Source of the DNA: Candidatus Nanoarchaeia archaeon
Lineage (GTDB): Bacteria > Patescibacteriota > Microgenomatia > Woykebacterales > RBG-16-39-9b
Length of the DNA stretch: 64,000 nt
Direction: 5' to 3'
Assembly (NCBI GenBank): GCA_036514715.1
Contig: DATBWR010000004.1
Coordinates: 9,147 to 73,146, forward strand
This document shows positions 23,995-50,783 of this stretch, one piece after another. The notes under the pieces were generated by a model that was not told the origin of the DNA, did not search any database, and saw only the letters and a program-made list of their open reading frames with translations. Every line of letters starts with the position of its first letter. The first letter of the stretch is position 1. The translations under genes were made by a program, and so were the position numbers.

Positions 23995-24022
23995 AAATAT
24001 ATGAATAGTTATTCATATATTT
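23995..24022. promoter_or_regulatory. palindrome copy 2 (28 bp), immediately upstream of trxB
   Basis: AAATATATGAATA-GT-TATTCATATATTT. It is followed by TGTAAT (24023-24028), 7 nt, then the trxB ATG at 24036. Confidence 0.7.
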
Positions 24023-25762: not shown

Positions 25763-28387
25763 ATGTCGACTAAAGCCAAACCTAAATCCCACGGAAAGGA
25801 GTTTTCTTCCGTAAGGAAGCAGTCCCCGCAGGGGTTTAAGTTTTCGGAAAAGCTGCAGAAAAAGTTGGAAAGCGTAATTGCCGACGAGGCTAAAACTCAG
25901 CTAGATGGGATCAGGCAAAAAGTTTTTATGGACCGCTACTCCTTAAAAGATGGCGAAGGTAAAGCGGTGGAAGAACATCCCGAACAAATGTGGCGTCGGG
26001 TGGCAGCCGGTTTAGCGCAGGTTGAAAAAACTGCCCAAGATCAAAAGGACTGGACCCAAAAATTTTATTCAGCTCTCAAAGATTTTAAATATGTACCCGG
26101 CGGTCGGGTCCTTTCCGGGGCCGGTACTCCCTATGAGGTAACTTTTTACAATTGTTTTGTTATTCCCTCACCCCACGATTCCCGCAACGGCATTGTTGAT
26201 AACTTGAAATTAATGATCGATATTATGAGCCGCTCCGGTGGAGTTGGCATCAACCTTTCTTCTCTTCGTCCACGAGGAGCTCGGGTCAAGAAAGTTAACG
26301 GCACTTCCTCCGGGCCGGTCAATTGGGCAGAGCTTTATTCAACCGCTACGACTGATGTTATTCAACAAGGTGGATCTCGACGTGGTGCCTTGATGCTGAT
26401 GATTGATGACTGGCACCCGGATATTGAAGAGTTTATCGAAGTTAAAAAAGACCTTTCCCGAATTAATGGAGCTAACCTTTCAGTTTGCGCTTCGGATGAG
26501 TTTATGGAAGCAGTGAAAAAGAACGCCGATTGGGACCTTTACTTCCCTGATCTCACCGATCCGGATTACGACCGGGTTTGGGACGGCGATATTGAAAAAT
26601 GGAAAGCTCTAGGCAAAAAAGTCGTTCTCTACAAAACTGTTAAAGCAGCCGAAGTTTGGGAAAAGATTTGTCAGGCGGCTTGGGCTTCGGCCGAACCGGG
26701 TTTGCACTTTATTGGTCGGAGTAACTCTCGTAGCAACACTTGGTATTTTGAAAAACTCATTGCCACTAACCCCTGCGGCGAACAGCCTCTTGGGGCTTGG
26801 GCGGTATGTAATTTAGGGGCGATGAATTTGTCAGCTTTCGTTAACGAAAACAGCGAGTTTGACTACCAGGATTTGGAAGACAAGGTGCGGATTGCTATCC
26901 GGATGATGGACAATGTTATTGATGCAACCGGTTACTACTTCCCGGAAAATAAGGCTCAACAGATGGGCATCCGACGCACTGGTTTAGGAACCATGGGTTT
27001 GGGCGATGCTTTAATTAAAATGAAGTTGCGTTACGGTGCAGATGAGGCTCAAGGCGTAATTGAAAAAATCTACAAGACCATTCGTGATGCTGCCTACAGT
27101 GAAAGCGCTGCCCTTTCAGTTGAAAAAGGATCTTTCCCCAATTACAAAAAAGCAAAATACTTACAAGGTTGGTTCATCAAAAAACTTCCTAAAGAAATTC
27201 GTGATCTGATCGCCAAAAACGGCATCCGCAACGCAGTTCTTCTTACCCAAGCTCCCACCGGAACCACCAGTTTACTTTCCGGTGTCTCTAGCGGCATTGA
27301 GCCGGTTTATGATTTTGCCATGGTACGTCGGGATCGCACTGGTGAACACGTTCTTTATCACCCCCTTTATGAAGCTTGGAAAAAAGCCAATCCAGAGGTA
27401 GAGGTTGCTCCGGACTATTTTGTTAGTGCTAACGATTTGACTCCTGAAGATCATGTAAAAGTACAGGCCCTGGTACAGGATTACACTGATTCTTCTATTT
27501 CTAAGACTGTTAACGCACCCAATGCCCACACGGTTGAGGAAGTTCGACAGCTTTACATGCAGGCTTATGAACTGGGGTGCAAGGGCGTTACCTACATGAG
27601 GGACGGTTCCCGCGAAGGAGTGCTTTCTCACGAAGCCGGAGAGAAAACTAGTAGTGAGCACTCTGCAGCGGCTACCCTCCAACCGGTCTACTTGCGAAAG
27701 AGACCCGATTATCTTCACGGAGTGACGCGGAGGATTGCAACTCCAGTGGGACACGCCTTTGTGACTATTAATGAAGATGAGGCTGGTAATCCTTTTGAAG
27801 TTTTCATCAACGTTGGCAAGGCCGGCAGCGATATCACTGCGGATGCGGAAGCAATCGGTCGGTTAATTTCTTTGGCGCTACGTATCCCTTCGAATTACTC
27901 GCCCGCCGAAGTAGTGCAACAAGTGGTTAACCAACTCTCCGGAATTGGTGGCAGCAGTTCCCGTGGTTTTGGTATTGACCGCATCCACTCACTAGCCGAT
28001 GCCCTTTCCAAGGTCTTGGCAGAATATACTGGAAAGGGCAGCACCTACCCCTCTGTCGAAGAAGGAAAGGTAGCAGCTACTAACGGTAACGGTTTGCCTG
28101 CAACTAACGGGCATACTAATGGCAACACCAACGGTCAAAATAACGGGCACACAAGGGACGGTCAGGCAATTGTTCAAGCTAAAGAGTCGGTCGAAGTAGG
28201 TGAAGCCCCTGCCCTGATAAGCGAGCTTTCAGGAGGGCAAATTTTGCAGGCTTCAGGTGTTGAAAGTGAAAAGCCAATGGGCTTGCAGCCCAAGCGCTTT
28301 GACCTTTGCCCCAAATGTGGAGTGGCTTCCTTTGTTCACGAAGAAGGTTGCAGTAAGTGCATGAACTGCGGCCACTCCGAGTGCTAG
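25763..28387 (+). CDS. nrdJ: adenosylcobalamin-dependent (class II) ribonucleotide reductase
   Basis: NPCGEQPL active-site loop and a C-terminal Cys cluster CPKCG...CSKCMNCGHSEC. Low-complexity insert ATNGNGLPATNGHTNGNTNGQNNGHT. Confidence 0.9.
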   Translation: MSTKAKPKSHGKEFSSVRKQSPQGFKFSEKLQKKLESVIADEAKTQLDGIRQKVFMDRYSLKDGEGKAVEEHPEQMWRRVAAGLAQVEKTAQDQKDWTQKFYSALKDFKYVPGGRVLSGAGTPYEVTFYNCFVIPSPHDSRNGIVDNLKLMIDIMSRSGGVGINLSSLRPRGARVKKVNGTSSGPVNWAELYSTATTDVIQQGGSRRGALMLMIDDWHPDIEEFIEVKKDLSRINGANLSVCASDEFMEAVKKNADWDLYFPDLTDPDYDRVWDGDIEKWKALGKKVVLYKTVKAAEVWEKICQAAWASAEPGLHFIGRSNSRSNTWYFEKLIATNPCGEQPLGAWAVCNLGAMNLSAFVNENSEFDYQDLEDKVRIAIRMMDNVIDATGYYFPENKAQQMGIRRTGLGTMGLGDALIKMKLRYGADEAQGVIEKIYKTIRDAAYSESAALSVEKGSFPNYKKAKYLQGWFIKKLPKEIRDLIAKNGIRNAVLLTQAPTGTTSLLSGVSSGIEPVYDFAMVRRDRTGEHVLYHPLYEAWKKANPEVEVAPDYFVSANDLTPEDHVKVQALVQDYTDSSISKTVNAPNAHTVEEVRQLYMQAYELGCKGVTYMRDGSREGVLSHEAGEKTSSEHSAAATLQPVYLRKRPDYLHGVTRRIATPVGHAFVTINEDEAGNPFEVFINVGKAGSDITADAEAIGRLISLALRIPSNYSPAEVVQQVVNQLSGIGGSSSRGFGIDRIHSLADALSKVLAEYTGKGSTYPSVEEGKVAATNGNGLPATNGHTNGNTNGQNNGHTRDGQAIVQAKESVEVGEAPALISELSGGQILQASGVESEKPMGLQPKRFDLCPKCGVASFVHEEGCSKCMNCGHSEC

Positions 28388-28439
28388 TTGACAAGACTTT
28401 AACAAACCTTTAGAGTGAGTATACTTTAAAAATTTAGAG

Positions 28440-28545
28440 CAAAGGATTAATTGGTGAAAGGCCGTGGAATTCGGCCGGACTGCCGGTACTGTTATACCCA
28501 GAACCCAACCTTTGTGTTCCTTCGAGCAAGGGAGGTGTTGATGAG
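28440..28545 (+). ncRNA. structured leader, possible cobalamin-riboswitch-like element (low confidence)
   Basis: GGTGAAAGG, hairpin GGCCG-UGGAAUU-CGGCC (cf. the GUGAAAAUC loop of B12 elements), and GCCGGUACUGU (cf. GCCACUGU). It lies immediately upstream of the terminator at 28554-28590. Confidence 0.3.
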
Positions 28546-31750: not shown

Positions 31751-32839
31751 TTACCATTGGGGAAGGAAGTCGCGGTAGTTTTCGGGAGTAATTTCCACAA
31801 GTTGGGCGTTTTCCTCGACAATTTTGCGGGCGACTTTCCTTAGCACCCCATTAATCGTTCGTTGAATGTTGCGGATATCAATTTCGTAACCAAAAGGCTT
31901 AATCATTAAGGGCCAAACCTCTTCACTAAATTTAACCTTGGCGCTATCAACGCCAGTAGCTACCAACTCTCGAGGGTAAAGATAATCGCGGGCAATTTTC
32001 ATTTTATCTTCGTCAGTGTAGCGGGGCATAATAATAATTTCGAGACGGTCCATTACTGCTGAGGTAATATTGCCCATGCGGTTAGCTGAGGCAATAAAAA
32101 GCACTTCGGATAAATCAACTGGATAGTTAATGTAGTAGTCAGTGAAGGCAAAATTTTGTTCCGGGTCAAGTAACTCAAGCAGCACTCCCATAATGTCGCT
32201 TTCAGCACCCTCTGCAATTGAATCAATTTCATCAAGCAGAATTACCGGATTTTTGGTGCCAGCACGAACCAAGGAACGTACAACGGTGCCTGGTTCAGCC
32301 TGCGGTAGAGTGCGGGGCTGGCCGCGCAGTAACATGGGGTTACTCATACCACCCATGGCAATTCGGCCAAACTTCCTGCCCAAAGACTCCGCAATTGAAG
32401 CGGCAAACGAAGTTTTGCCGCTGCCGGGTAAGCCCACAAAACAGAGGATGCTAGCCCGGGTAGTTTTGAAAACCTTATCAGAGTCTTTTTCCTGGTGGAG
32501 TTTAAGAACCGATAAATATTCCAAAATTCGGTTTTTTACTGACTCTAAGCCCCAATGGCTCTTATCAAGAATTGTTTTGGCAGCTTTTAAGTCAAGATTA
32601 TCGGTCGAACGGGCAGCCCAGGGTATTTTTAGGATCCAATCAATATATTTGGCAGCTTGCTCGTAATCTTGCTGATACACGCCATGGGTCATGGCGCGAT
32701 TGAGCCGCACCAAAGTTTCTTTAGCAGTTTCTTTGAGATCGTCTGGTAAGTGCGCTTTCTCAAGTTTTTCAGAAAGTGCGGAAATTTCGAGTAGTGTAGA
32801 TTCTTGAGGTTCTTGGTCTTTTTCTTTGGCAGTGGGCAT
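31751..32839 (-). CDS. Lon-like AAA+ ATPase module lacking the N-terminal substrate domain and the protease domain
   Basis: ILCFVGLPGSGKTSFAASIAESLGRKFGRIAMGG, NPVILLDEIDSIA, LLELLDPEQN, ANRMGNITSAVMDRLEIII. The ORF is bounded by neighbouring genes, so there is no room for a protease domain. Confidence 0.75.
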   Translation of the reverse strand: MPTAKEKDQEPQESTLLEISALSEKLEKAHLPDDLKETAKETLVRLNRAMTHGVYQQDYEQAAKYIDWILKIPWAARSTDNLDLKAAKTILDKSHWGLESVKNRILEYLSVLKLHQEKDSDKVFKTTRASILCFVGLPGSGKTSFAASIAESLGRKFGRIAMGGMSNPMLLRGQPRTLPQAEPGTVVRSLVRAGTKNPVILLDEIDSIAEGAESDIMGVLLELLDPEQNFAFTDYYINYPVDLSEVLFIASANRMGNITSAVMDRLEIIIMPRYTDEDKMKIARDYLYPRELVATGVDSAKVKFSEEVWPLMIKPFGYEIDIRNIQRTINGVLRKVARKIVEENAQLVEITPENYRDFLPQW

Positions 32840-32955: not shown

Positions 32956-33171
32956 ATGAAAACAACCTATATGGCTAAAGTAAAGTCCCTCCCCAAAAAA
33001 GATTTAGTACCAGGAAGCAAAATCCCCATTACCTACCTACTAGACTATGTAAAAGAGGGTTATTCTGTTACCGATTTTGTCTCTGCCTACCCTTGGGTAA
33101 AAAGAAGTGATGTTGAAAAAGCTCTTGAAGAGATAAAAAAGCGAGATTTCACTTCGCAATATGCCGTCTAG
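32956..33171 (+). CDS. DUF433-family antitoxin-like protein
   Basis: 71 aa; ITYLLDYVKEGYSVTDFVSAYPWVKRSDVEKALEE. Overlaps the downstream gene by 11 nt. Confidence 0.6.
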   Translation: MKTTYMAKVKSLPKKDLVPGSKIPITYLLDYVKEGYSVTDFVSAYPWVKRSDVEKALEEIKKRDFTSQYAV

Positions 33172-33565
33172 ACAGGCAAAGCTTCAATTCTACGCTGACG
33201 AGTGTTTCCCAATCACATCAGTAACTTTTTTGAAATCACTAGGATATTCCGTAATTCACGCTTACGATATTAAATTTGTTAGAAAATCGGATCCAAAGCA
33301 CTTACTAAAAAGTAAGGAGCTAAATAGAGTCCTCTTAACTACTGACCGAGATTTTCTTTACTACAGCGAAGCTAATTTGGCCAACCATCCAGGCGTAATA
33401 GTTATTTCTTCTGGATCAGTAACTGCTCCCAAAGTTAACACTGTATGTAGCAAGTTATTCCAAAAGTTAAGTAGTGATTTAGTAAAAAGTTCGTTAGTAC
33501 GCTCTTCGAGCGAGAAGATGGTTAAGTTTAAAGATGGGGAGAAAGTTTTAGAGAGAAAATTGTAA
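33161..33565 (+). CDS. DUF5615 / Mut7-C PIN-like ribonuclease toxin candidate
   Basis: FYADECFPITSVTFLKSLGYSVIHAYDIKFVRKSDPKHLLKSKELNRVLLTTDRDF. Confidence 0.6.
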   Translation: MPSRQAKLQFYADECFPITSVTFLKSLGYSVIHAYDIKFVRKSDPKHLLKSKELNRVLLTTDRDFLYYSEANLANHPGVIVISSGSVTAPKVNTVCSKLFQKLSSDLVKSSLVRSSSEKMVKFKDGEKVLERKL

Positions 33566-33644: not shown

Positions 33645-34010
33645 TCATCTTAGTCCAAGCCAAGCTAATAGAACTGTAATTATTACAGTAATAACAATCT
33701 TTTCTAAATTTCTAGTTACCCAGTTAGGGATATGCACTCTAGGGAATTTTATGGTTTTATTAATCTTGGTAGCCCAAGGATATTTTGCCCCGCACTTATG
33801 GCAATGTGACGGAATAGAAGTTGGACCCCCTCCTATTACATTTGGTATCACGTAGTCACCTCTTATAGGCTCGTTGCATTTAGGGCACGTGTGGATGGTT
33901 TTTGCTCCACAATTACCACAAAAATCCTTTCTATGCTGTTGCAATTCATTATAATGGTCTGTAATTTGATGACCATTTAAACAAACTTGCATTACGTCAT
34001 AATATCCCAT
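33645..34010 (-). CDS. zinc-ribbon protein with C-terminal TM anchor (start probably the MGYYDV methionine)
   Basis: CLNGH...FCGNCG...CPKCNEP...HCHKCGAKYPW gives 4 Cys/His pairs, with C-terminal IVITVIITVLLAWLGL. The ORF-track N-terminal extension overlaps the upstream gene by 136 nt. Confidence 0.5.
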   Translation of the reverse strand: MGYYDVMQVCLNGHQITDHYNELQQHRKDFCGNCGAKTIHTCPKCNEPIRGDYVIPNVIGGGPTSIPSHCHKCGAKYPWATKINKTIKFPRVHIPNWVTRNLEKIVITVIITVLLAWLGLR

Positions 34011-34018
34011 GATTTTAA

Positions 34019-34309
34019 TTACCTTTCTCCGCAAGTTGGGTTGTACTGAGTTCTGATCATTAATTCGATCTTTAGACGAGTTTGTTCGTCCGCGATTTGT
34101 AAAATATACAATCCTAAATTTCCGGCTTTGTTTCTTTCCCAACAAGCTTGCCATGGGTGGTTTGGGAACCTATTATTTAAATCATCTGTTTGACCCACGT
34201 CTAACAACTTTGGTTGGTTATCAACAATTACATATACAGCAGATATTTGATTCGTGAAACCTCGGAGTGGATCGAACGGTCCTTCAAAATTGTAACCGGT
34301 AATGTTCAC
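34019..34309 (-). CDS. small GIY-YIG-like nuclease-domain protein (96 aa)
   Basis: SAVYVIVDNQPKLLDVGQTDDLNNRFPNH (GIY...YIG...R...H pattern), then RLKIELMIRTQYNP (conserved Glu/Asn). Confidence 0.5.
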   Translation of the reverse strand: MNITGYNFEGPFDPLRGFTNQISAVYVIVDNQPKLLDVGQTDDLNNRFPNHPWQACWERNKAGNLGLYILQIADEQTRLKIELMIRTQYNPTCGER

Positions 34310-34441
34310 CTAACCTCCTTACACTTGACAATTTCTGTAATTTTTTGGTTAAATTTACAATGAAGGCCAAAACCTTCACAAAAGTGCTGTTTTCCTTTGA
34401 ACGGGGGAGCGGCACTTTTATTGTCTCTAATTATACAGAAG

Positions 34442-34849
34442 TCACTTATTGTTTTCAAGTAGATCTATAACAAAAATCTCTCCAAACTCACCATCTTTAA
34501 CTTTGGTAGGAGTTTTTCTACCAACATATTCCTCTTTATTTATCTCATTAGATATCAAAAATGATCTAACTGTAACAGAACCTGTTGTTCTTTTATTTCC
34601 GTGAATTATTGTGAAGGCGCCTTCAGCATCCTTATCGTTTGTGAACTGGAAACCCACAGCTTTCCTACTTTTATCGTAGAAAAGTACGACCTTATTATAT
34701 CTACTTATACCTTCTCGATTGTAGAACCCGCTGCTGAACCCGAATGAGTGTGAGCCAGTAAGGCTAATCGAATAATTGCCTAATTTAGACCCGATTTTCG
34801 TGAAACGTTTGAATTTATAGTCAGACATAGTGTTGTAGTCACTGTACAT
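34442..34849 (-). CDS. hypothetical protein
   Basis: 135-aa ORF with no recognisable motif; part of the low-GC island. Confidence 0.4.
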   Translation of the reverse strand: MYSDYNTMSDYKFKRFTKIGSKLGNYSISLTGSHSFGFSSGFYNREGISRYNKVVLFYDKSRKAVGFQFTNDKDAEGAFTIIHGNKRTTGSVTVRSFLISNEINKEEYVGRKTPTKVKDGEFGEIFVIDLLENNK

Positions 34850-34973: not shown

Positions 34974-36449
34974 TTAGAAAAGCTCTAGGGTTTCGGAGGT
35001 TTCTTCAACAGCGTCTGTCTCTTTGTACGGTTCTTTATGCGGAGGCATGTCTACTTCTTTGCCGCTCAGTAAGTCTTCAACTGTCAATATTTGGGTTCTT
35101 GGATAATCCTTATTCCAAGTTTCGGAGTGATAAAACCCAGCAACTGTGGCCTCCTTTTTCATAGGGTTTGTAGGCTCTTCAAGAGTTATAAAAACACCAA
35201 TAGCGGCTTTTTCCCTTTCGATCACACCATTTAAATCTCTAATTTGTGAAACATCAGTGTGCCCACTTTTCACTTGGAGCAAAACTTTCTTTGCATCTTC
35301 TTTGCCATCCAGAAACGGAATTACCCCATCAATACCCTTGTCGGAGCCTTTTCTTTTATCTTGAACTGGCCGCCCGCCCGCTAGATCAACAGCCCACCAT
35401 TCGAACTGGAACCGATCGTGTTTTGCTAAATCGACAGCACCACTAAGATCCTTAGGTTCACCAATAACTTCTATCTTCAACCCAGGAAATGAGTCCTTTA
35501 GTCTCTTTCTCATTAAACCAACCGCCAAATGTGTTATATCTATTCCGACCCACTTCCTTTTTAATTTCTGAGCTGCAACTAAAGCGGTTCCGCAACCACA
35601 AAAAGGATCTAAAACGACGTCACCCTCGTTTGACGATGCTTTGATTATTATCTCCAGTAAAGCTACAGGTTTTTGTGTTGGGTAACCCAACCTCTCTTTT
35701 GAAATTGGGGCTATAATTGACACTTCCCAGACATCTGACATTGGTGCTCCGGGACTTTCTTCTTCGGTGGAACTACTAACAACCCTTTTGCCTTCTTCAA
35801 ACACAGCACGCTGTTTCTTTGTTCCCCATTGTTCAAGGGTTGACTTAGCTAAGTTTTCGTAAAGAGTATTGAAATCTCTTTCTCTTGCTTGGGATTTAGA
35901 GTAAAAAAGTATTACATCATGCATCCTCTGAAACCTCTGTGCTTTGGTAGGCCATCGTCTGTACCTCCAAATGACTTCGTTTTGAAAGTTTTCTTTGCCG
36001 AAAATTACATCCATTATAGTCTTTAGGTAGTGACTTGCGGTTGGGTCACAGTGTAAATAAAGAGATCCTGTATTTTTCAAAACCCTACGAAGTTCAATCA
36101 ACCTCGGCGTCATCATCACTAGATAAGCGGTTAAATCGTTATGCCCCAAAAACTTTATTAAACTATCTATCATGTCTGCTATGTTCTGGGTTGGGGCGTT
36201 GGTCATTATGTCATGATAGGTTCTTTCAGCCTCTGGACCCCACTTCCACGTATCAGTAAAGGCTTCTATTTGTGCTTCCGACTCTTTATTTTCCTCTTCT
36301 TTAAAGATAACGTTATAATCGCGTTTACTGTTAAATGGCGGATCTAAATAGATTAGATCAACACTCTCGTCAGGGAAATGCTCTCTGAGGATTTTTAAGT
36401 TGTCGCCGTAATAGAGCGCGTTGGTTTTCAATTCCATAAGTTTAACCAT
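34974..36449 (-). CDS. beta-class DNA (N6-adenine/N4-cytosine) methyltransferase fused to a C-terminal Mrr-like PD-(D/E)xK nuclease domain
   Basis: Motif IV VDLIYLDPPFNSKRDYN precedes motif I VVLDPFCGCGTALVAAQ. C-terminus KGSDKGIDGVI...VLLQVKSG...AIGVFITLEE matches the Mrr catalytic domain. The likely start is MVKLMELKTNALYYGDNLKIL at 36449; the ORF-track start at 36515 uses an ATG inside the palindrome. Confidence 0.75.
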   Translation of the reverse strand: MVKLMELKTNALYYGDNLKILREHFPDESVDLIYLDPPFNSKRDYNVIFKEEENKESEAQIEAFTDTWKWGPEAERTYHDIMTNAPTQNIADMIDSLIKFLGHNDLTAYLVMMTPRLIELRRVLKNTGSLYLHCDPTASHYLKTIMDVIFGKENFQNEVIWRYRRWPTKAQRFQRMHDVILFYSKSQARERDFNTLYENLAKSTLEQWGTKKQRAVFEEGKRVVSSSTEEESPGAPMSDVWEVSIIAPISKERLGYPTQKPVALLEIIIKASSNEGDVVLDPFCGCGTALVAAQKLKRKWVGIDITHLAVGLMRKRLKDSFPGLKIEVIGEPKDLSGAVDLAKHDRFQFEWWAVDLAGGRPVQDKRKGSDKGIDGVIPFLDGKEDAKKVLLQVKSGHTDVSQIRDLNGVIEREKAAIGVFITLEEPTNPMKKEATVAGFYHSETWNKDYPRTQILTVEDLLSGKEVDMPPHKEPYKETDAVEETSETLELF

Positions 36450-36494
36450 TTTACCATTTCTAGGCTTAGAAATCGAATTTTCTTGGCAGCTAGG

Positions 36495-36520
36495 GATATA
36501 TGAATAGTTATTCATATATC
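36495..36520. promoter_or_regulatory. palindrome copy 3 (26 bp) between the divergent methyltransferase and uppS genes
   Basis: GATATATGAATA-GT-TATTCATATATC. TATAAT at 36528-36533 follows, then ATG at 36541. Confidence 0.7.
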
Positions 36521-36540
36521 GTTGCGGTATAATGGCCTTT

Positions 36541-37221
36541 ATGGAAAATATAGTGCCGGATCATGTGGCGATAATTATGGACGGGAACCGCCGCTGGGCA
36601 AAACAGCGAGGCCTTCCCGCCCTTGCAGGCCATGCGGCAGGGGTTGAAGCTTTGGAAAAAGTAGTTACCTTGGCTGCCAAAAAGAAAATTAAATTTTTGA
36701 CAGTTTACGCACTATCTGCCGAAAACTTGCAGGAACGCGGACAAAGTGAACTTGCGGGCCTCTTTTCTTTAATTCAAAAAGGTTTGGTTACCAAACTTGA
36801 CCGGCTGGTGAAAGAGGGTGTAAAACTAGTTTTTCTTGGTAACATCAAAGCTCTACCGACGTTAGTTCAGAAGGCGCTTGGTCTGGCCTTGGAAAGGTCA
36901 AAAGGCGGTAAAGGTTTACAACTGGCTGTTGCTCTAAACTACAGTTCTCGAGCTGAAATTGTGGAAGCAGCGCAAAAAGCCTCCTCTATAAAAGATTTGG
37001 ACGAGACCAAATTTTCCAATCTTCTTTACACTTCTCCCACAGCTGATCCGGATTTAATTATCCGCACCGGTGGGCAAAAGCGGCTTTCTAACTTTTTGTT
37101 GTGGCAGGCTTCTTACAGTGAGTTATATTTCACTGACTTGTTATGGCCGGATTTTGGAGAAAAAGATTTTGAGAGAGCACTGGAGGATTTTGCGCTGCGC
37201 AAGCGAAATTTTGGAGCTTAA
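36541..37221 (+). CDS. uppS: undecaprenyl-diphosphate synthase (start probably ATG at 36541)
   Basis: HVAIIMDGNRRWAKQRGLP, typical UppS N-terminus. Confidence 0.9.
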   Translation: MENIVPDHVAIIMDGNRRWAKQRGLPALAGHAAGVEALEKVVTLAAKKKIKFLTVYALSAENLQERGQSELAGLFSLIQKGLVTKLDRLVKEGVKLVFLGNIKALPTLVQKALGLALERSKGGKGLQLAVALNYSSRAEIVEAAQKASSIKDLDETKFSNLLYTSPTADPDLIIRTGGQKRLSNFLLWQASYSELYFTDLLWPDFGEKDFERALEDFALRKRNFGA

Positions 37222-37940
37222 GTACCGGGGATGGCGCGGTTAGCAAAGAGAAAAATACCGATCGCCACAATTATCGCTACCACTAAAATCACAAAAATCG
37301 TTACCGGAAAACCACCTTGGTGCTCCTCACTTTGAGTTTCCTCACTTGGGGTAACTGCGGGAGTTGGTGTACCTGGGGCAGTTGGGGTAGAACTTTCTGC
37401 CGGTACTTGCCAAGGTAGTGGAGCACTGGCTAAGGAAGGGTCTGGAGCTGCAGGTACACTTGGAGGGGGCGGAGTATTGTCTTCTGGGCGCAGCCAACTA
37501 GGACCAACTTCACCGGTGTTTTCTGGCGGCGCTGGCGGTTCGATACTTGGAGTTGAGGTCCCTACTACTCCACTGGCAACTGGTGCAGTTGGTGTGGGTT
37601 CTGGGGCTGAAGGTTCAGGTACCGCTGGTTGGTCATTCATAGCCCATGGCGGTTTCTCCATTTCTGTTGGCGCTGGCATAGCGGCAGCTGGCGGTTCCGA
37701 TACTGTTGGGTTGCTTGGTGTTGGCGGTAGAGGATTTGGCATTGGGTCAGGAACTGCCGGAGTTGGTGTTGGACTTGGGTCAGCTAGCGGCGTTGTTGGT
37801 ACCGGATCCGGACTTGGTGGTAGCGGTGGGGGGTCGGGTATTGGGTTTGGTTCTGGCGTTGGCAGATTAGGATCAGGACCTAACGGTGAGGGTGGTGTTG
37901 GACCAGAAGGTGGGGTAGGCGAGTTTGGTTCTTCGGGCAT
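37218..37940 (-). CDS. Pro/Thr/Ser-rich low-complexity protein with C-terminal TM anchor
   Basis: PTPPSGPTPPSPLGPDPNLPTPEPNP repeats, ending VTIFVILVVAIIVAIGIFLF. The Gly-rich plus-strand ORF at 37477-37944 is its mirror image. Confidence 0.5.
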   Translation of the reverse strand: MPEEPNSPTPPSGPTPPSPLGPDPNLPTPEPNPIPDPPPLPPSPDPVPTTPLADPSPTPTPAVPDPMPNPLPPTPSNPTVSEPPAAAMPAPTEMEKPPWAMNDQPAVPEPSAPEPTPTAPVASGVVGTSTPSIEPPAPPENTGEVGPSWLRPEDNTPPPPSVPAAPDPSLASAPLPWQVPAESSTPTAPGTPTPAVTPSEETQSEEHQGGFPVTIFVILVVAIIVAIGIFLFANRAIPGT

Positions 37941-38487: not shown

Positions 38488-38958
38488 ATGAGCAAAAAAG
38501 ACACCAAAGTTCTTTTGACAGCCGAAGGTTTGCAAAAACTGAAGGTCGAGTATGACGAGTTAGTCAACGTCAAAAGAAAAGAAGTAACGGAAAAAATTGC
38601 TAAAGCCCGCGAATTTGGTGACCTCTCCGAAAATTCCGAATACGACACCGCCCGCGAAGAACAAAGCTTCACTGAAGGTCGAATAATGGAACTTGAGGAA
38701 ATCCTTTCTCACGCCAAAGTTATTGAGTCCGCGCCAAAATCCTCCGGAACAGTTGATATCGGTTCGAGAGTCCGGGTCCATGTTGACGGCGAGGAAGATG
38801 AGTTTGTGATCGTTTCTTCAGTCGAGGCTAATCCTATGGAAGGCAAAATCTCGGTTGAGTCCCCGGTCGGTAAAGCGCTGCTTGGTTCTAAGGTCGGGGA
38901 TGTGGTCACTGTTTCCTCCACCATCAAAGCTACGTATAAGATTCTCAACATAAGATAG
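38488..38958 (+). CDS. greA: transcription elongation factor GreA
   Basis: LTAEGLQKLKVEYDELVNVKRKEVTEKIAKAREFGDLSENSEYDTAREEQ. Confidence 0.9.
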   Translation: MSKKDTKVLLTAEGLQKLKVEYDELVNVKRKEVTEKIAKAREFGDLSENSEYDTAREEQSFTEGRIMELEEILSHAKVIESAPKSSGTVDIGSRVRVHVDGEEDEFVIVSSVEANPMEGKISVESPVGKALLGSKVGDVVTVSSTIKATYKILNIR

Positions 38959-41294: not shown

Positions 41295-41377
41295 AAGCCT
41301 CCGTGAGACCCTCGCCGGTACGGAGGCTTAACCATTTGTCCAGCCCCTCAATGTAAAACATCGAGGGGCTTTTTCTT
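41295..41377 (+). terminator. two hairpins after the GC-rich gene; the second is a rho-independent terminator
   Basis: First hairpin AAGCCTCCGT...ACGGAGGCTT (41295-41329). Second GCCCCTC...GAGGGGC (41343-41369), followed by TTTTTCTT. Confidence 0.6.
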
Positions 41378-41411
41378 GCGCAAAAATACGCTGATCAGTA
41401 TACTAAGAGCA

Positions 41412-42938
41412 ATGTTTTGGGCGGATATTATTGCCAAAAATCTAAAAGACAAAGGACCACATTTGGTTGACGATGCCAAAACTCCTTCAGGCAAAGTTCA
41501 TGTTGGCGCCTTGCGTGGAGTATTAATCCATGATTTTGTTCATAAAGCCTTGCTTGAGATGGGAGCAAAATCCCGCTATACCTACATTTTTGACGATTTT
41601 GACCCCATGGACTCTCTTCCAGTTTATTTAGATAAAAGTAAATACGAAAAATATATGGGAGCCCCGCTGAAAAACATTCCTGCTCCGGAAGGCGAAGGTT
41701 CATACGCGGAATATTACGCGCACGATTTTCGGACGGTCTTTAATAGTTTAGGAGCCAAACCAGAAATTTTATGGAATTCTAAACTTTACGAAGAAGGTAA
41801 GTTGGATAAGGCGATCAGAGTTGTTTTAGACAACGCTGAGCAGATTCAGGAAATCTACCACCAAGTTTCCGGTTCCCAAAAAGAAAAAGGCTGGCTGCCT
41901 TTTCAGCCGGTTTGTGAGAATTGCGGTAAAATCGGCACAACTAGAGCTTACGACTGGGATGGCCAAGAAGTTAAGTACAAGTGCGAGTCGGAGATGGTTG
42001 AGTGGGCAAGAGGTTGCAGCCACGAGGGTAAAGTTTCACCTTTTGGGGGAAGTGGAAAAATGCCCTGGAAAGTGGAGTGGCCGGCCAAATGGTTTGTTTT
42101 GGGAGTAACTATCGAAGGAGCCGGGAAAGACCATTCTTCCAAGGGTGGTGCGCGTGATGTTGGCGTCAAGATTATCCGCGAAGTTTTCAAAAAAGAACCA
42201 CCTTACGATGTTTCTTACGAATTTATTAACTTAGGCGGTAAAAAAATGAGTTCGTCCAAAGGTTTGGGGTCTTCCGCTCTGGAAGTTGCTGAAATTTTGC
42301 CGCCAGAGGTCCTTCGCTTTCTTTTTGCCCGAGTACCAGCTCAGAGGTCCATTGATTTCGATCCTACACAAGAGACAACCATACCTAACCTCTTTGATGA
42401 GTTTGATCGAGGGCAGAAGGCACATTTTTCTAAAGAAAATCCTGATCTTGCTAAAACTTGGGAAGCATCACAGATTGGAGAAATAAAGCAAGAATTTGTA
42501 CCACGCTTCAATTTAATTAAAGAAGCACTCTCTAACTTCAAAAACGAAGAAGAGATTCTCTCTGAAGCGGGAAAATTAAAAGGAGAGAAACTGTCCAAAG
42601 TTGACGAAGAAGCGATCAAACTACGTATTAAATACGTAAAAATCTGGTTGGAGAGGTTTGGAAAAGAAGAAAAGGCCAGCGAAAAAGCTGTTTTGAGTCC
42701 AGCGCAGAAAAAACTCCTCGAAGAGATCAGTCAAGCTCTTAAAGAAACTCAGAGGGAGGACGAGGTGCAAAACTTCATTTATAATAGAGGAAGGCAGCTC
42801 GGTTTGACTCCGCAAGAAACCTTTCAAGCGGTTTACAAAGCCCTTTTAGGAAAATCCCAGGGTCCAAAGGCTGGGAAGTTAGTCCTCTCACTCGGGTTTA
42901 AGAAAGCAAAAGAGAAATTTTTAGAGGCGGCCAAATGA
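41412..42938 (+). CDS. lysK: class I lysyl-tRNA synthetase (start probably ATG at 41412)
   Basis: MFWADIIAKNL...KVHVGALRG (HIGH-like) and KMSSSKG (KMSKS). The upstream in-frame TTG lies inside the terminator T-run. Confidence 0.85.
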   Translation: MFWADIIAKNLKDKGPHLVDDAKTPSGKVHVGALRGVLIHDFVHKALLEMGAKSRYTYIFDDFDPMDSLPVYLDKSKYEKYMGAPLKNIPAPEGEGSYAEYYAHDFRTVFNSLGAKPEILWNSKLYEEGKLDKAIRVVLDNAEQIQEIYHQVSGSQKEKGWLPFQPVCENCGKIGTTRAYDWDGQEVKYKCESEMVEWARGCSHEGKVSPFGGSGKMPWKVEWPAKWFVLGVTIEGAGKDHSSKGGARDVGVKIIREVFKKEPPYDVSYEFINLGGKKMSSSKGLGSSALEVAEILPPEVLRFLFARVPAQRSIDFDPTQETTIPNLFDEFDRGQKAHFSKENPDLAKTWEASQIGEIKQEFVPRFNLIKEALSNFKNEEEILSEAGKLKGEKLSKVDEEAIKLRIKYVKIWLERFGKEEKASEKAVLSPAQKKLLEEISQALKETQREDEVQNFIYNRGRQLGLTPQETFQAVYKALLGKSQGPKAGKLVLSLGFKKAKEKFLEAAK

Positions 42939-45627: not shown

Positions 45628-45895
45628 GTTCAAGGGCTTTGGCCTTCCGACCAAGGGCAAAGTTGAGAGCATGAGTAACTGCTAGACCCACCCGGATGCC
45701 AGTGTAAGAGCCAGGCCCGACCTTTGCGGAAAAGCTGTCAATCTCCTTAAGTTTAAGACCGGCTTTTTTCAAGGCTGCCTCGATAGCAGCTAGGGGTGAG
45801 TCTTTGGTGATTGTGACCAAAACCTTGCCGTCTTCTTTAATTTCGACCTTGGCTTCTTTGGCGACCGTGGTGTCTAAAAGTAGCTCTTTACTCAT
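45614..45895 (-). CDS. minimal TsaB/YeaZ-like protein (N-terminal half only, 93 aa)
   Basis: LLLDTT...KVGPGSYTGIRVGLAVTHALNFALG. Bounded on both sides, so a full-length version cannot fit. Confidence 0.55.
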   Translation of the reverse strand: MSKELLLDTTVAKEAKVEIKEDGKVLVTITKDSPLAAIEAALKKAGLKLKEIDSFSAKVGPGSYTGIRVGLAVTHALNFALGRKAKALEPKYQ

Positions 45896-48129
45896 ATTTT
45901 GGGAACAGAGGCAGCGAAGTTTTTCTTTTCACTCTCTTGTCTCATTTCGTCCAAAACTGATCTTTCTGCGATCCTTAAAGTGAAAATAAAACTAGAGCCT
46001 TTACCAACCTCACTTTTTACCCAAATTTTGCCACCTAAGAGTTCGACGTAATTTTTAGTAATGTAAAGCCCTAAGCCCGTCCCCCCGCTGGTAGCAGCAG
46101 CAGCGTAAGAGTTTTCCAAACGTCCGTACTTGGTGAAGAGCTTATCGATTCCCTCCTTGGTCATACCGACTCCGGTGTCAGTTACTGAGATTTCCACAAA
46201 ACCAGCCTCTTGAGAAAGAGAAGATTTAACGGTAATTTTACCTTTTTCAGGAGTAAATTTAATGGCGTTGCCAACCAAATTTTGGAGAATTTCCGGGAAG
46301 CGCTGCTTATCTAAAATAACCTTGGGTAATTTAGGTTGTTCTTCATAGGTAAGGACGATCTTCTTCTCATCCGTCTTGGAAGCGATTTCCGCAAAAACTT
46401 GGTCCACGAGTGGTTTCAGGGCGGCTTCTTCAAAATTAAGCTGCACCCTGCCAGCCTCAATTCGAGAGACATTAAGAAGATCGTTGATCAAAGCGATCAT
46501 GCGTTCGGAACTGGTGTAGGAAACATCCAAATAATGCTTGAGCTTTTCGTTTTTAATCTCTCCGGCCCGGCCGTTTAAGGCCATCCACAAGTAACTTTTA
46601 ATCGCGGTCATAGGAGTGCGTAAATCATGAGAGGCAATGGAGAGAAATTCGTCTTTGAGCTTATCAATTTCCTTAAGAGCCTCGTTGGCTTTCTTCAGTT
46701 CACGAGTAGCCCTCTCTACCTGTTCTTTCAAAGTGATGTTGAAGCGGCGGATTTTTTCAACGGACTTTGCATTTTCAAAAGAGATGGCAGCCTCAGGTGA
46801 AAAGATCTCAAGAACTTTAATGTCTTTGGATGAATAAATCTCGCCAGAAGCTTTTTCCCCTAAGAGCAAAACTCCAACGTGGTCAATCTGAGTTTTCAGA
46901 GGGATAACTACAGTCACGTCCAGCCGCCGCAACAGTTCTTTGGTCGCACCTTCCTCAAGATCCTCAAAAACCAGGTTTTTGTCAATGGCTTCTAGTGAAA
47001 AGACATCTTTTTCGGAAAAAGAAGGCTCTTTTTTGTAGCCAGAAGTTTCACTAACAAAGATTTTGCCGGCATCGGTTAGAACAAAGGCGCCGCGGGTGAT
47101 GCGCATTTGGGCCAAAATTTTCTCAAGCAGTTTGTGGGCAATATCATCGATTAAAATCGTTTCCGCCATGGTTCTTGTAAGGTCAGAAAGCAGCACAGTA
47201 GACTCGTAATCCTCTTTAAAGAAGATCCGATCAGTAACGTGCTCAAAGAAGCGCCGTAGAGGTTGGAAGGTGAAGGCCACGACTAAAGTTAGTGAAGCGT
47301 AAATTAGTAGCTGTGCCGTAGAAGTAGTAGTTCTGAAAAGGAAGTTAGTAAGTAGAACAGTTGACCCAATGTAAAAAATTGCAATCGAGAAAACCAAAAG
47401 TGAGTAAGCCACCGTCCTCGCCACCACCAGCCGAATATCCAGCAACCGGTGCCTGACAATAGCATAAGCGGTTGCACCAAGAAAGAGCACAAAACCGTAA
47501 ATTCCTAAGCGGGTTATAGCTGGTGTAACGTTAATTAACTGAGGAAGCACTACGTTAGTCAAAACTGCTATAACTGAGGTTGAAATTAGTCCTAGCAAGA
47601 CGTAAAAAGTTTGAGACTTCTCGACTCCCACTAGAGTTTTAAACTTTATGAAAAGAGCAACCGCACTAATTAAAACTACGTATAAGAAAGAGTAGACCGA
47701 AAACAAGTCTCCTAAGGGTCCGTAGGTAAATTTAACCCTATTTCCAACTATTTCTACATAGGCGATTAAGTCTGTAAAAGAAAGAACTATTAAAAGCAGA
47801 GTTGGTATGAATAACAACAAATCTCTTTTCACGTGTAACTTTGCTTTAGGAAAGTTTAGCGAGAAAAGTAAGAACACATAGGCTATTAGGGACGCACTTG
47901 CGTAGTCCAAGCTCTTAAGGAGGTTTATTACAGATCTCCCAAAAGTCTCATCTTCGGAGAAACTGACAAAAGACCAAAAAGCCATTAAGAGGGATAGGGC
48001 AGCAAAAAGCCTGTTAGTCCAGTTCTTTGGATTTCTAGTAATTACTAGAAGACCAAGGAGAAGGTTAGCAACAATTATCGAAACCGCAAGTATTAAATCA
48101 AGACGCATCTTGGCTAGGTTTTTCTCCAA
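45892..48129 (-). CDS. sensor histidine kinase with large polytopic N-terminal domain
   Basis: About 10 TM helices, coiled coil, H-box SIASHDLRTPMTAIKSY. N/G boxes LVGNAIKFT, DTGVGM, GTGLGLYITKN. Confidence 0.85.
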   Translation of the reverse strand: MEKNLAKMRLDLILAVSIIVANLLLGLLVITRNPKNWTNRLFAALSLLMAFWSFVSFSEDETFGRSVINLLKSLDYASASLIAYVFLLFSLNFPKAKLHVKRDLLLFIPTLLLIVLSFTDLIAYVEIVGNRVKFTYGPLGDLFSVYSFLYVVLISAVALFIKFKTLVGVEKSQTFYVLLGLISTSVIAVLTNVVLPQLINVTPAITRLGIYGFVLFLGATAYAIVRHRLLDIRLVVARTVAYSLLVFSIAIFYIGSTVLLTNFLFRTTTSTAQLLIYASLTLVVAFTFQPLRRFFEHVTDRIFFKEDYESTVLLSDLTRTMAETILIDDIAHKLLEKILAQMRITRGAFVLTDAGKIFVSETSGYKKEPSFSEKDVFSLEAIDKNLVFEDLEEGATKELLRRLDVTVVIPLKTQIDHVGVLLLGEKASGEIYSSKDIKVLEIFSPEAAISFENAKSVEKIRRFNITLKEQVERATRELKKANEALKEIDKLKDEFLSIASHDLRTPMTAIKSYLWMALNGRAGEIKNEKLKHYLDVSYTSSERMIALINDLLNVSRIEAGRVQLNFEEAALKPLVDQVFAEIASKTDEKKIVLTYEEQPKLPKVILDKQRFPEILQNLVGNAIKFTPEKGKITVKSSLSQEAGFVEISVTDTGVGMTKEGIDKLFTKYGRLENSYAAAATSGGTGLGLYITKNYVELLGGKIWVKSEVGKGSSFIFTLRIAERSVLDEMRQESEKKNFAASVPKI

Positions 48130-50363: not shown

Positions 50364-50459
50364 TTATATACTATAGGACCAAGTTTGTCTAAATTTTATA
50401 GAAAAAGAAAAAGACCCGCGAGGTTTGAAAACCTTTTGGGTCTTTGGTGATCTCTCTGT

Positions 50460-50783
50460 TTGCCAAGCGCCTCTCTCGAATGCTACTATTTCTTAAGAGC
50501 CATGAACGCCCTAAAGAAACTGCCTTGGTACATCCTCCCAATCCTCTGGGGCCTACTTACGCTTCCCCTTACGTGGGCTGTGATGTGGATTACTTCCTTC
50601 CTGTTTTCTGGAGATAGTAATCTTTGGGTTGCTGCTTACGGAGTTCTAGTATGGGCATTTGTACTAGCAACTCTTCTCGTCTGTCTAGGTAGTGCCTTAA
50701 CTGCTCCAGAAAAACGACTGCGCTCCCTTGGGTTAACCATTTTCGTTGTCATCGCGACAATTGCAATCCTTTCTTCAATTTAG
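50460..50783 (+). CDS. small membrane protein (GC-rich island)
   Basis: 107 aa, 3 hydrophobic helices. Confidence 0.4.
   Translation: MPSASLECYYFLRAMNALKKLPWYILPILWGLLTLPLTWAVMWITSFLFSGDSNLWVAAYGVLVWAFVLATLLVCLGSALTAPEKRLRSLGLTIFVVIATIAILSSI

What the first reader, a model, noticed from the sequence alone, without database searches (positions are those of the whole stretch)
34974..36449. DNA methyltransferase fused to a C-terminal Mrr-type PD-(D/E)xK nuclease domain
A beta-class methyltransferase (motif IV DPPF before motif I FCGCGTA) continues into a ~150-aa domain with KGSDKGIDGVI and LLQVKSG, matching the Mrr catalytic core (D...D...QxK) with conserved residues. N-terminal-nuclease/methyltransferase fusions (type IIG/IIL) are known, but this C-terminal Mrr arrangement is unusual. 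It could be a single-chain restriction-modification enzyme or a modification-dependent nuclease coupled to its own methyltransferase. No separate restriction endonuclease is adjacent. Palindrome copy 3 sits in its promoter region.
Basis: partly seen in the sequence, partly recalled or inferred. Interest (0 to 1): 0.55.

Follow-up and report, generated by a model that had tools for sequence, protein, structure and literature searches.

The report
Methyltransferase fused to Mrr-type nuclease domain
This gene really does encode a DNA adenine methyltransferase joined to a C-terminal restriction-nuclease-like domain, but the design is not rare: thousands of relatives exist in bacteria, archaea and especially temperate phages, and I found no published test of whether the nuclease part cuts DNA.

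Summary
The minus-strand ORF 34974-36515 (likely start Met23 at 36449 or Met27 at 36437) encodes a beta-class N6/N4 DNA methyltransferase (DPPF before FCGCGT; Pfam E 3e-49). It is followed by a ~130-aa PD-(D/E)xK domain matching Pfam Mrr_cat and NA-iREase1. That domain folds like the MspJI nuclease domain and aligns with E. coli Mrr with E372, D392, D396 and Q414-x-K416 in register.

The claim that the arrangement is unusual is wrong. The same two-domain protein occurs in at least 594 reference genomes, at least 479 viral contigs and cultured phages (Marinitoga MPV1, Streptomyces Yasdnil group, Mycobacterium Dori). It is annotated there as DNA methyltransferase or restriction endonuclease.

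It has no conserved partner gene. In viral and phage loci it often sits beside the repressor or integrase.

D392, D396 and K416 are invariant in 290 sequences, but position 372 is Q in 80% and position 414 is S in 38%, so nuclease activity is plausible but unproven.

Best reading (0.45): a self-contained single-chain restriction-modification enzyme. Main rival (0.35): an orphan or phage methyltransferase whose nuclease-fold domain only binds DNA. I found no experimental study.

The parts
34974..36449 (-). Coding sequence of the methyltransferase-nuclease fusion, taken from Met23 (491 aa plus stop). Alternative starts are Met27 at 36437 and the upstream ATG at 36515, which gives the 513-aa ORF.
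   Evidence: ORF list; homolog N-termini; the 487-aa annotation of a near-identical MAG copy; coordinates checked.
35529..36362 (-). Beta-class N6/N4 DNA methyltransferase domain (residues 52-329).
   Evidence: Pfam PF01555 E 3.3e-49. PDB sequence hits to M.BceJIV, CcrM, MboIIA and RsrI. Foldseek hits to EcoP15I Mod, MboIIA, M.BceJIV and RsrI at E about 1e-13 to 1e-15.
36333..36344 (-). Motif IV DPPF (residues 58-61), the catalytic motif. An Asp at the first position suggests N6-adenine (inference).
   Evidence: Invariant in 121 of 121 homologs and 167 of 169 loci.
35586..35603 (-). Motif I FCGCGT (residues 305-310), the AdoMet-binding loop. It lies after motif IV, which is the beta-class order.
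35676..35954 (-). Variable middle region (residues 188-280), the presumed target-recognition region.
   Evidence: The least conserved part (46% mean identity against 56-75% elsewhere), with large insertions and deletions between homologs. Its role as the recognition region is inferred from the beta-class layout.
35448..35528 (-). Linker (residues 330-356) between the two domains. It contains conserved G352 and P354.
   Evidence: Alignment and the AlphaFold secondary structure.
35067..35447 (-). C-terminal Mrr-type PD-(D/E)xK (restriction-endonuclease-fold) domain, residues 357-483.
   Evidence: Pfam Mrr_cat and NA-iREase1, both above their cutoffs. Domain model pLDDT 86, pTM 0.80. Foldseek: MspJI nuclease domain E 1.3e-4, TMq 0.50, then EcoO109I, Can2, EcoT38I, Cap4, BamHI and Ecl18kI. 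hhalign against EcoKMrr: probability 90.7%, E 1.2e-6.
35268..35402 (-). Putative active-site segment: E372 (helix 1), D392 and D396 (GSDKGIDG), and Q414-V-K416.
   Evidence: In register with the RFE, GDGGIDG and QAK segments of EcoKMrr. It parallels the MspJI D-X20-QAK motif (PMC4231741). D392, D396 and K416 are invariant in 290 sequences; position 372 is E in 20% and Q in 80%; position 414 is Q in 62% and S in 38%.
36496..36519 (.). 24-nt perfect palindrome ATATATGAATA-AC-TATTCATATAT in the roughly 80-nt divergent region between this gene and uppS. It is a probable promoter or operator element and is not specific to this gene.
   Evidence: 3 exact copies plus 1 variant in the window, 0 expected by chance. 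Copies 1-3 sit about 25-28 nt upstream of plus-strand start codons.

Best explanation
The gene encodes a self-contained, horizontally mobile, two-domain enzyme. The N-terminal part is an active beta-class DNA methyltransferase, probably N6-adenine. Its variable middle region would choose a short DNA target and methylate it using S-adenosylmethionine. The C-terminal part is an Mrr-type PD-QxK nuclease module. The most likely mechanism is a single-polypeptide restriction-modification enzyme (type IIC in the broad sense, but with the domain order reversed and a different methyltransferase class from MmeI/type IIG). The methyltransferase moiety would bind unmodified target sites. When two molecules meet on unmodified foreign DNA, their nuclease domains could pair and cut. 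Resident DNA would be protected because the same protein has already methylated it. What is shown: the identity of both domains, intact methyltransferase motifs, the full Mrr residue set in this protein, the absence of a partner gene, and the phage or defence-island context of relatives. What is inferred: the adenine target, actual cleavage, dimer-dependent control, and the defence role.
For: Both domains score above Pfam cutoffs. The methyltransferase motifs are invariant. The C-terminal domain has a confident nuclease fold, closest to MspJI. It aligns with the active enzyme EcoKMrr, matching E372, D392, D396, Q414 and K416. Mrr and MspJI are described as PD-QxK enzymes (PMC12707154; PMC4231741). 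D392, D396 and K416 are 100% conserved across 290 sequences from many phyla and phages at 36-69% domain identity. Eroded, inactive nuclease domains, described as having degenerate catalytic motifs (bioRxiv 10.1101/2025.10.09.681413), would not be expected to keep such residues. The two domains always travel together, and this C-terminal subfamily is found almost only behind this methyltransferase. No neighbouring gene family occurs in more than 11% of 169 loci, so any restriction function must lie within the protein itself. Relatives sit in defence-rich spots (Shedu, ThsB-TIR, SNase). In temperate phages they sit next to the repressor or integrase, where prophages are known to carry host-protecting genes (background knowledge). 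The presumed recognition region is hypervariable, as expected under an arms race. The review PMC12707154 explains how single-chain enzymes can be safe: monomers methylate, and assembly is needed to cut.
Against: No experimental report of cleavage, or of any activity, for this family was found in 8 literature searches. The domain matches the Pfam family named 'inactive restriction endonuclease' slightly better than Mrr_cat (52 of 52 members against 51 of 52). Two of the canonical positions are not conserved. The helix-1 Glu is Gln in 80% of members. The Q of QxK is Ser in 38%. In 37% of members both are non-canonical at once (Q372 with S414), and no compensating acidic residue appears in the Ser group. 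Many copies are in phages, where plain orphan methyltransferases used against host restriction are common (general knowledge). A phage-borne nuclease acting on unmethylated DNA could harm a newly infected host. The domain order and methyltransferase class differ from every characterised single-chain enzyme I could identify.
Confidence: 0.45

Rival explanations
1. It is an orphan or phage-type DNA methyltransferase, used for anti-restriction or epigenetic marking. Its C-terminal nuclease-fold domain does not cut DNA. Instead it serves as an accessory DNA-binding, dimerisation or sensing module, functionally like the C-terminal DNA-binding domain of CcrM.
For: NA-iREase1 ('inactive REase') is the slightly better Pfam match across the family. 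Position 372 is Q in 80% and position 414 is S in 38%, and 37% of members have neither canonical residue. Full-length copies are annotated simply as DNA methyltransferase in MPV1, about 25 Streptomyces phages, and Mycobacterium phages Dori and Mask. No endonuclease partner is present and no toxicity-control gene is conserved nearby. CcrM, another beta-class enzyme, needs an extra C-terminal domain to hold the non-target strand (PMC6787082). Foldseek also matches the non-enzymatic Rpb5 N-terminal domain.
Against: D392, D396 and K416 are absolutely invariant in 290 sequences. The query itself has the complete EcoKMrr residue set. Two invariant acidic residues are unusual for a purely DNA-binding surface (inference). 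The CcrM C-terminal domain is SAND-like, not nuclease-fold, so the analogy is only functional.
Confidence: 0.35
2. It is a modification-dependent (type IV-like) nuclease coupled to its own methyltransferase. The enzyme would methylate DNA and then cut methylated DNA, for example to degrade host or competitor DNA.
For: The nuclease domain belongs to the Mrr/MspJI group, whose characterised members are modification-dependent.
Against: In Mrr and MspJI the modified base is read by a separate N-terminal winged-helix or SRA domain, and Mrr_cat only cleaves (PMC12707154; PMC4231741). No such reader domain is detected here. An enzyme that cuts its own product would be self-destructive in the many chromosomal and prophage copies.
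Confidence: 0.05
3. It is a selfish mobile cassette. The nuclease domain would mainly promote spread or retention of the gene itself, by homing-like cutting of unmethylated empty sites or by post-segregational killing, rather than defending the host.
For: The distribution is very patchy across phyla, archaea and phages, with no conserved neighbours. In this window it abuts an AT-rich stretch of orphan genes between housekeeping genes. Some variants are fused to an ImmA/IrrE-type peptidase typical of mobile-element switches.
Against: No target-site duplications, empty-site comparisons or repeats were examined, so there is no direct evidence. The idea also requires an active nuclease, so it shares the weaknesses of the main explanation.
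Confidence: 0.08

Closest known systems
EcoKMrr and MspJI catalytic domains (Pfam Mrr_cat PF04471; 'PD-QxK' type IV / type IIM nucleases)
   Same: The fold is the same (Foldseek best hit is the MspJI nuclease domain). The residue pattern is the same: FE, GxDxGIDG and QxK aligned with EcoKMrr. D-X17-QVK here compares with D-X20-QAK in MspJI.
   Different: In those enzymes the nuclease follows a reader domain for modified bases (winged helix or SRA). Here it follows an active methyltransferase. Most family members replace the helix-1 Glu with Gln, and 38% replace Q with S.
Beta-class N6-adenine/N4-cytosine DNA methyltransferases (M.BceJIV, M.MboIIA, M.RsrI, CcrM; Pfam PF01555)
   Same: The motif order is IV before I, with DPPF and FxGxG motifs. 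Sequence and structural similarity are strong.
   Different: Those enzymes are 230-360 aa and lack a nuclease-fold domain. CcrM has a C-terminal DNA-binding domain, but it is SAND-like (PMC6787082).
Single-polypeptide restriction-modification enzymes (type IIC/IIG/IIL: MmeI, Eco57I, BpuSI families)
   Same: A nuclease domain and a methyltransferase domain sit in one chain with no separate endonuclease gene. This is the proposed working principle.
   Different: The characterised families have an N-terminal PD-(D/E)xK nuclease, a gamma-class methyltransferase and a C-terminal recognition domain (PMC2731913 title and abstract; PMC4389544; gamma class from general knowledge). Here the order is reversed, the methyltransferase is beta-class, and the recognition region is internal. 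Cleavage is not demonstrated.
Type III Mod subunits (EcoP15I Mod, Mbo45V Mod)
   Same: It is a beta-class methyltransferase with an internal variable region. The top Foldseek hits of the full model include EcoP15I Mod, and PADLOC MTase_III models match.
   Different: No Res helicase-nuclease gene lies adjacent here or in 169 homologous loci. The best PADLOC model is a type II methyltransferase.
Already deposited homologs: Marinitoga phage MPV1_55, Streptomyces phage Yasdnil gp48, Mycobacterium phage Dori gp42, Dehalococcoidia and Acidobacteriota proteins, and QBM02112.1 / HEY4694531.1
   Same: They share the same two-domain architecture at 41-67% identity over the full length. The window protein itself is in NCBI.
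   Different: They are annotated only by homology ('DNA methyltransferase', 'restriction endonuclease', 'hypothetical protein'). Their recognition regions differ. Phage copies sit in lysogeny modules, whereas this copy sits next to uppS.
NA-iREase1 (Pfam PF22722, NACHT-associated inactive restriction endonuclease 1)
   Same: Significant match above the cutoff for the query and all 52 sampled family members.
   Different: There is no NACHT/STAND NTPase here. The canonical D and K, and in the query also E and Q, are retained.

Membership tests
Beta-class N6/N4 DNA methyltransferase (PF01555) | Pfam score above the gathering cutoff | tested here: met
   168.2 bits against a cutoff of 26.7, E 3.3e-49.
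Beta-class N6/N4 DNA methyltransferase (PF01555) | Motif IV (D/S/N)PP(Y/F) lies N-terminal to AdoMet motif I FxGxG (the permuted beta order) | tested here: met
   DPPF at residues 58-61 and FCGCGT at 305-310; both invariant in homologs.
Beta-class N6/N4 DNA methyltransferase (PF01555) | Structural similarity to solved beta-class enzymes | tested here: met
   Foldseek hits to MboIIA, M.BceJIV, RsrI and EcoP15I Mod at E 1e-13 to 1e-15.
Beta-class N6/N4 DNA methyltransferase (PF01555) | Methyl transfer to DNA, and which base and sequence are targeted | not testable with these tools
   Needs a methylome or an enzyme assay. N6-adenine is inferred from the Asp in DPPF.
Mrr_cat PD-(D/E)xK nuclease (PF04471) | Pfam score above the gathering cutoff | tested here: met
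   36.1 bits against a cutoff of 21; 51 of 52 family members match.
Mrr_cat PD-(D/E)xK nuclease (PF04471) | Restriction-endonuclease alpha/beta core fold | tested here: met
   Domain model pLDDT 86. Foldseek hits to MspJI, EcoO109I, EcoT38I, BamHI and Ecl18kI.
Mrr_cat PD-(D/E)xK nuclease (PF04471) | Catalytic residues E (helix 1), D, and QxK in register with EcoKMrr | tested here: met
   hhalign probability 90.7%, with E372, D396 and Q414-x-K416 aligned. This holds for the query; in the wider family E372 and Q414 are variable.
Mrr_cat PD-(D/E)xK nuclease (PF04471) | Mg-dependent DNA cleavage | not testable with these tools
   No biochemical data were found for any family member.
Type IIG/IIL single-chain RM enzymes (MmeI-like) | Nuclease and methyltransferase in one polypeptide | tested here: met
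   Both domains are in one ORF.
Type IIG/IIL single-chain RM enzymes (MmeI-like) | N-terminal nuclease, gamma-class methyltransferase, C-terminal recognition domain | tested here: not met
   The nuclease is C-terminal and the methyltransferase is beta-class. It is therefore not a member of this family, although it may work in a similar way.
Type III restriction-modification (Mod + Res) | Adjacent Res gene encoding a helicase-nuclease | tested here: not met
   None in the window. No helicase family appears among the neighbours in 169 loci.
Type IV / type IIM modification-dependent nucleases (Mrr, MspJI) | N-terminal reader domain for modified bases (winged helix or SRA) | tested here: not met
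   The N-terminal part is a methyltransferase with intact catalytic motifs; no winged-helix or SRA hit was found.
NA-iREase1 (PF22722) | Pfam score above the gathering cutoff | tested here: met
   35.5 bits against a cutoff of 27; 52 of 52 family members match.
NA-iREase1 (PF22722) | Association with a NACHT/STAND NTPase and loss of catalytic residues | tested here: not met
   No NTPase domain is present. D392, D396 and K416 are invariant and the query keeps E372 and Q414. I could not inspect the Pfam consensus itself.
Orphan / phage-borne methyltransferase | No cognate endonuclease gene linked | tested here: met
   No neighbour family occurs in more than 11% of 169 loci, and the window's downstream ORFs do not recur elsewhere.

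The most novel reading that the evidence does not exclude
This very large family (3068 clusters at 50% identity) could be an unrecognised class of single-chain restriction-modification enzyme. It would have reversed architecture: a beta-class methyltransferase followed by a C-terminal Mrr-type nuclease. Temperate phages would carry it next to their repressor or integrase to protect lysogens, or to attack unmethylated DNA, with a minimal D-D-K active site that tolerates Q or S at the classical positions.
Probability: 0.35. Interest if true: 0.55.

Novelty: new member of a known kind. Interest (0 to 1): 0.33.

Why it matters
As a sequence observation it is ordinary. The protein is already in public databases and belongs to a huge family that is annotated by homology. 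Its value lies in the gap it exposes. A two-domain methyltransferase-nuclease design is present in hundreds of species and in hundreds of viral contigs, where it often lies beside the repressor or integrase, yet I found no experimental characterisation. If the nuclease is active, the family would add a compact restriction-modification type with new specificities and would explain a common prophage accessory gene. If it is inactive, it would be a clear case of a nuclease fold reused as a DNA-handling module for a methyltransferase.

Tried and rejected
1. CcrM analogy. I recalled that the CcrM C-terminal domain might have a nuclease fold. The paper says it is SAND-like (PMC6787082), so the parallel is functional only.
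2. Haloferax HVO_A0006 (PMC4389544) is a fragment of an N-terminal type IIG nuclease and is unrelated.
3. The Asgard 'novel type IIG fusion' with DPANN relatives (PMC11529989) is MmeI-like, so it belongs to a different family.
4. PDB sequence searches with the C-terminal domain, as a single sequence and as a 52-member profile, found nothing meaningful. Only fold comparison and hhalign worked.
5. Search for a partner gene. The downstream ORFs of several loci are unrelated to each other. Clustering 1299 neighbouring ORFs gave no family in more than 19 of 169 loci. The window's 135-aa, GIY-YIG-like and DUF2321 ORFs do not recur elsewhere.
6. My first count of 5 tandem second copies was wrong. Only L116 is a true tandem pair. 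L039 has a methyltransferase-only paralog, L043 and L080 are split genes, and L132 is a weak match.
7. Test for a compensating acidic residue in the Ser414 subgroup, as in Cfr10I: none was found.
8. Sigma-70 promoter and terminator scans were at chance level.
9. I could not find the source description of NA-iREase1.
10. An exact look-up of P0001 found no contig.
11. The host's domain of life was not resolved.
Full report
OBSERVATION. The minus-strand ORF 34974-36515 encodes 513 aa. Homologs of about 480-495 aa start at or near this point. A near-identical copy in a 'Candidatus Nanoarchaeia' MAG is annotated at 487 aa, which corresponds to Met27 at 36437. The first ATG, at 36515, lies inside a 24-nt palindrome and is unlikely to be the true start.

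Pfam gives N6_N4_Mtase over residues 52-329 (E 3.3e-49). It also gives Mrr_cat over 383-457 (E 7.9e-9, 36.1 bits against a cutoff of 21) and NA-iREase1 over 384-483 (E 1.1e-8, 35.5 bits against 27). DPPF (58-61) precedes FCGCGT (305-310), which is the beta-class order.

THE METHYLTRANSFERASE. The closest solved sequences are M.BceJIV, CcrM, MboIIA and RsrI. The full AlphaFold model (pLDDT 75, pTM 0.72) matches EcoP15I Mod, MboIIA, M.BceJIV and RsrI at E 1e-13 to 1e-15. The best PADLOC model is a type II methyltransferase, and type III Mod models also match. DPPF and the motif I glycines are invariant in 121 close homologs and in 167 of 169 further loci, so the enzyme is very probably active. 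N6-adenine specificity is inferred from the Asp of DPPF. The middle region (188-280) is the least conserved part, at 46% mean identity with large indels, against 56-75% elsewhere. It is the likely target-recognition region.

THE C-TERMINAL DOMAIN. Modelled on its own with 36 sequences, it is confident (pLDDT 86, pTM 0.80) and has a helix-helix-strand-strand-helix-strand core. Its best PDB match is the MspJI nuclease domain (E 1.3e-4, TMq 0.50). The next matches are EcoO109I, Can2, EcoT38I, Cap4, BamHI and Ecl18kI, together with the non-enzymatic N-terminal domain of Rpb5.

Sequence searches of the PDB, with a single sequence or with a profile, found nothing. A profile of 52 diverse family domains does align with E. 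coli K-12 Mrr (hhalign probability 90.7%, E 1.2e-6). The alignment pairs FE372 with RFE, GSD392KGID396G with GDGGIDG, and LLQ414VK416 with YVQAK. Mrr and MspJI are described as PD-QxK enzymes (PMC12707154), and the MspJI motif is D-X20-QAK (PMC4231741). Here the motif is D396-X17-QVK. The query therefore carries the complete Mrr-type residue set.

HOW COMMON IT IS. The same architecture fills the top 120 of 8000 scored hits at 51-67% full-length identity. These are annotated as 'site-specific DNA-methyltransferase', 'DNA modification methylase' or 'restriction endonuclease'. The genomes span Chloroflexota, Acidobacteriota, Sphingomonas, Rhodobacteraceae, Aquificaceae and Thermoplasmatales, among others. 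All 171 loci retrieved include the C-terminal domain.

Cultured phages carry full-length copies at 41-47% identity: Marinitoga phage MPV1, about 25 Streptomyces phages (Yasdnil, Werner, Hippo and others) and Mycobacterium phages Dori and Mask. The C-terminal domain alone retrieves 3068 clusters at 50% identity, 1499 of them at E 1e-10 or better. In longer proteins it follows an N6_N4 methyltransferase. The only other architecture seen adds a Peptidase_M78 (ImmA/IrrE) domain at the end (P0232, P0257). The window protein itself is in NCBI as QBM02112.1 ('hypothetical protein', uncultured archaeon). The claim that the arrangement is unusual is therefore not supported.

CONTEXT. In the window the gene is divergent from uppS (36532-37221). 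It is followed on the same strand by three small ORFs in an AT-rich stretch (GC 0.36-0.37). These are a 135-aa orphan, a 96-aa ORF with a sub-threshold GIY-YIG match, and a DUF2321 zinc-ribbon protein. Beyond them lie a DUF433/DUF5615 pair and a Lon-like AAA ATPase. None of the small ORFs recurs near the fusion gene in 169 other loci.

Clustering 1299 neighbouring ORFs within 3 kb shows no family in more than 19 loci. The top three families are a CI-like HTH plus S24 repressor (19 loci, mostly just upstream on the same strand), tyrosine integrases (15) and serine recombinases (11). At least one of these lies within 3 kb in 34 of 83 viral or phage loci, against 5 of 86 cellular loci. The same pattern holds in MPV1 (next to the CI-like repressor), Yasdnil and Dori (near the integrase) and a Mu-like prophage. 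Other loci place the gene beside Shedu, ThsB-TIR, SNase, or an HTH plus M78 peptidase pair with an HNH gene further along. The unit is thus a stand-alone mobile gene that recurs in defence-rich spots and prophage lysogeny modules. It is not half of a two-gene system.

IS THE NUCLEASE ACTIVE? The argument for activity is conservation. D392, D396 and K416 are invariant in 290 sequences spanning many phyla and phages, and D/E427, E435 and E455 are more than 90% conserved. That is not the degenerate catalytic-motif pattern described for inactive nuclease-fold domains (bioRxiv 10.1101/2025.10.09.681413).

The argument against is variation at the other canonical positions. The helix-1 position 372 is E in only 20% of sequences (the query included) and Q in 80%. 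Position 414 is Q in 62% and S in 38%. The combinations are Q/Q 124, Q/S 107, E/Q 55 and E/S 4, and no acidic residue is gained specifically in the Ser group. The family also matches the 'inactive' Pfam family slightly better than Mrr_cat. I found no experimental paper on any member. Activity is therefore plausible, especially for this EDDQK-type copy, but unproven.

MECHANISM. The best-supported reading (0.45) is a single-chain restriction-modification enzyme. The methyltransferase and its recognition region would find a short site and methylate resident DNA. Nuclease domains of two molecules would pair on unmodified incoming DNA and cut it. That assembly step would also allow safe establishment, as the review PMC12707154 argues for type IIC enzymes. 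The domain identities, intact motifs, lack of a partner and genomic context are shown. Cleavage, its control and the defence role are inferred.

A selfish-cassette reading (0.08) is not excluded.

COMPARISON WITH KNOWN SYSTEMS. The protein is a member of the beta-class methyltransferases and of the Mrr_cat nuclease-fold group. It is not a member of the MmeI-type IIG/IIL family, because the domain order and methyltransferase class differ. It is not type III, because no Res gene is linked. It is not type IV, because there is no reader domain. It may nevertheless work like a type IIC enzyme.

NOVELTY. This is a further member of a large family that is already annotated in databases but is functionally untested. 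Interest is modest (0.33). It would rise if the nuclease proves active, which would define a reversed-order class of single-chain restriction-modification enzyme common in temperate phages.

SIDE OBSERVATIONS. The 24-nt palindrome occurs four times in the window. Three copies sit in one orientation about 25-28 nt upstream of plus-strand start codons, including uppS, which suggests a shared promoter or operator rather than a control element specific to this gene. The contig is deposited as archaeal yet encodes GreA and several histidine kinases alongside a class-I LysRS, so its taxonomic assignment deserves a check.

Noticed in passing
window 13988-14011, 23997-24020, 36496-36519, 63751-63774: A 24-nt perfect palindrome, ATATATGAATA-AC-TATTCATATAT, occurs three times exactly and once as a variant, with 0 expected by chance. 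Copies 1-3 are in the same orientation, with their centres about 25-28 nt upstream of plus-strand start codons (14027, 24036, and 36532 = uppS). Copy 4 lies inside the start of ORF 62607-63845. It looks like a shared promoter (TATA-like, short or no leader) or an operator.
   Followed up: partly
whole window (e.g. GreA 38488-38958, histidine kinases 3208-5785 and 45892-48129, class-I LysRS 41376-42938): The contig is deposited as 'uncultured archaeon' or 'Candidatus Nanoarchaeia'. It nevertheless encodes bacterial-type GreA and several histidine kinases together with a class-I lysyl-tRNA synthetase. The taxonomic assignment, or extensive gene transfer, is unresolved.
   Followed up: partly
window 33645-34849 (minus strand): An AT-rich stretch (GC 0.36-0.37) just downstream of the fusion gene holds three small ORFs. 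They are a 135-aa orphan with no hits in any library, a 96-aa ORF with a sub-threshold GIY-YIG match (E 0.008), and a DUF2321 zinc-ribbon protein (phrog_16447). None recurs next to the fusion gene in 169 other loci.
   Followed up: yes
window 32956-33565 (plus strand): An overlapping DUF433 / DUF5615 (PIN-like) gene pair that looks like a toxin-antitoxin module, next to a Lon-like AAA ATPase that shows no protease-domain hit (31751-32839).
   Followed up: no
proteins P0232 and P0257 (representative library): A triple-fusion variant of the family: methyltransferase, Mrr_cat domain and Peptidase_M78 (ImmA/IrrE). It links the family to the proteolytic switches of prophages and mobile elements. 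Locus L010 has separate HTH and M78 genes close to the fusion gene.
   Followed up: partly
L039:708-3830 and L116:52-3059: L039 has a methyltransferase-only paralog (42% identity, no nuclease domain) just upstream of the fusion, which (from general knowledge) recalls type IIG systems with an extra methyltransferase. L116 has two full tandem fusion genes at 64% identity. L043 and L080 carry split or frameshifted copies.
   Followed up: partly
window 28439-28515 (plus strand): An AdoCbl-II (cobalamin) riboswitch lies immediately downstream of a ribonucleotide reductase gene with a TSCPD domain (25763-28387). It presumably controls the next gene.
   Followed up: no
window 49000-54000 and 37218-37940: These are compositional outliers. 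A stretch with GC 0.51-0.53 (window mean about 0.44) includes an NHL-repeat/lipase-like protein (50780-52834). A proline-rich, low-complexity 240-aa ORF with a hydrophobic C-terminal segment lies next to uppS.
   Followed up: no
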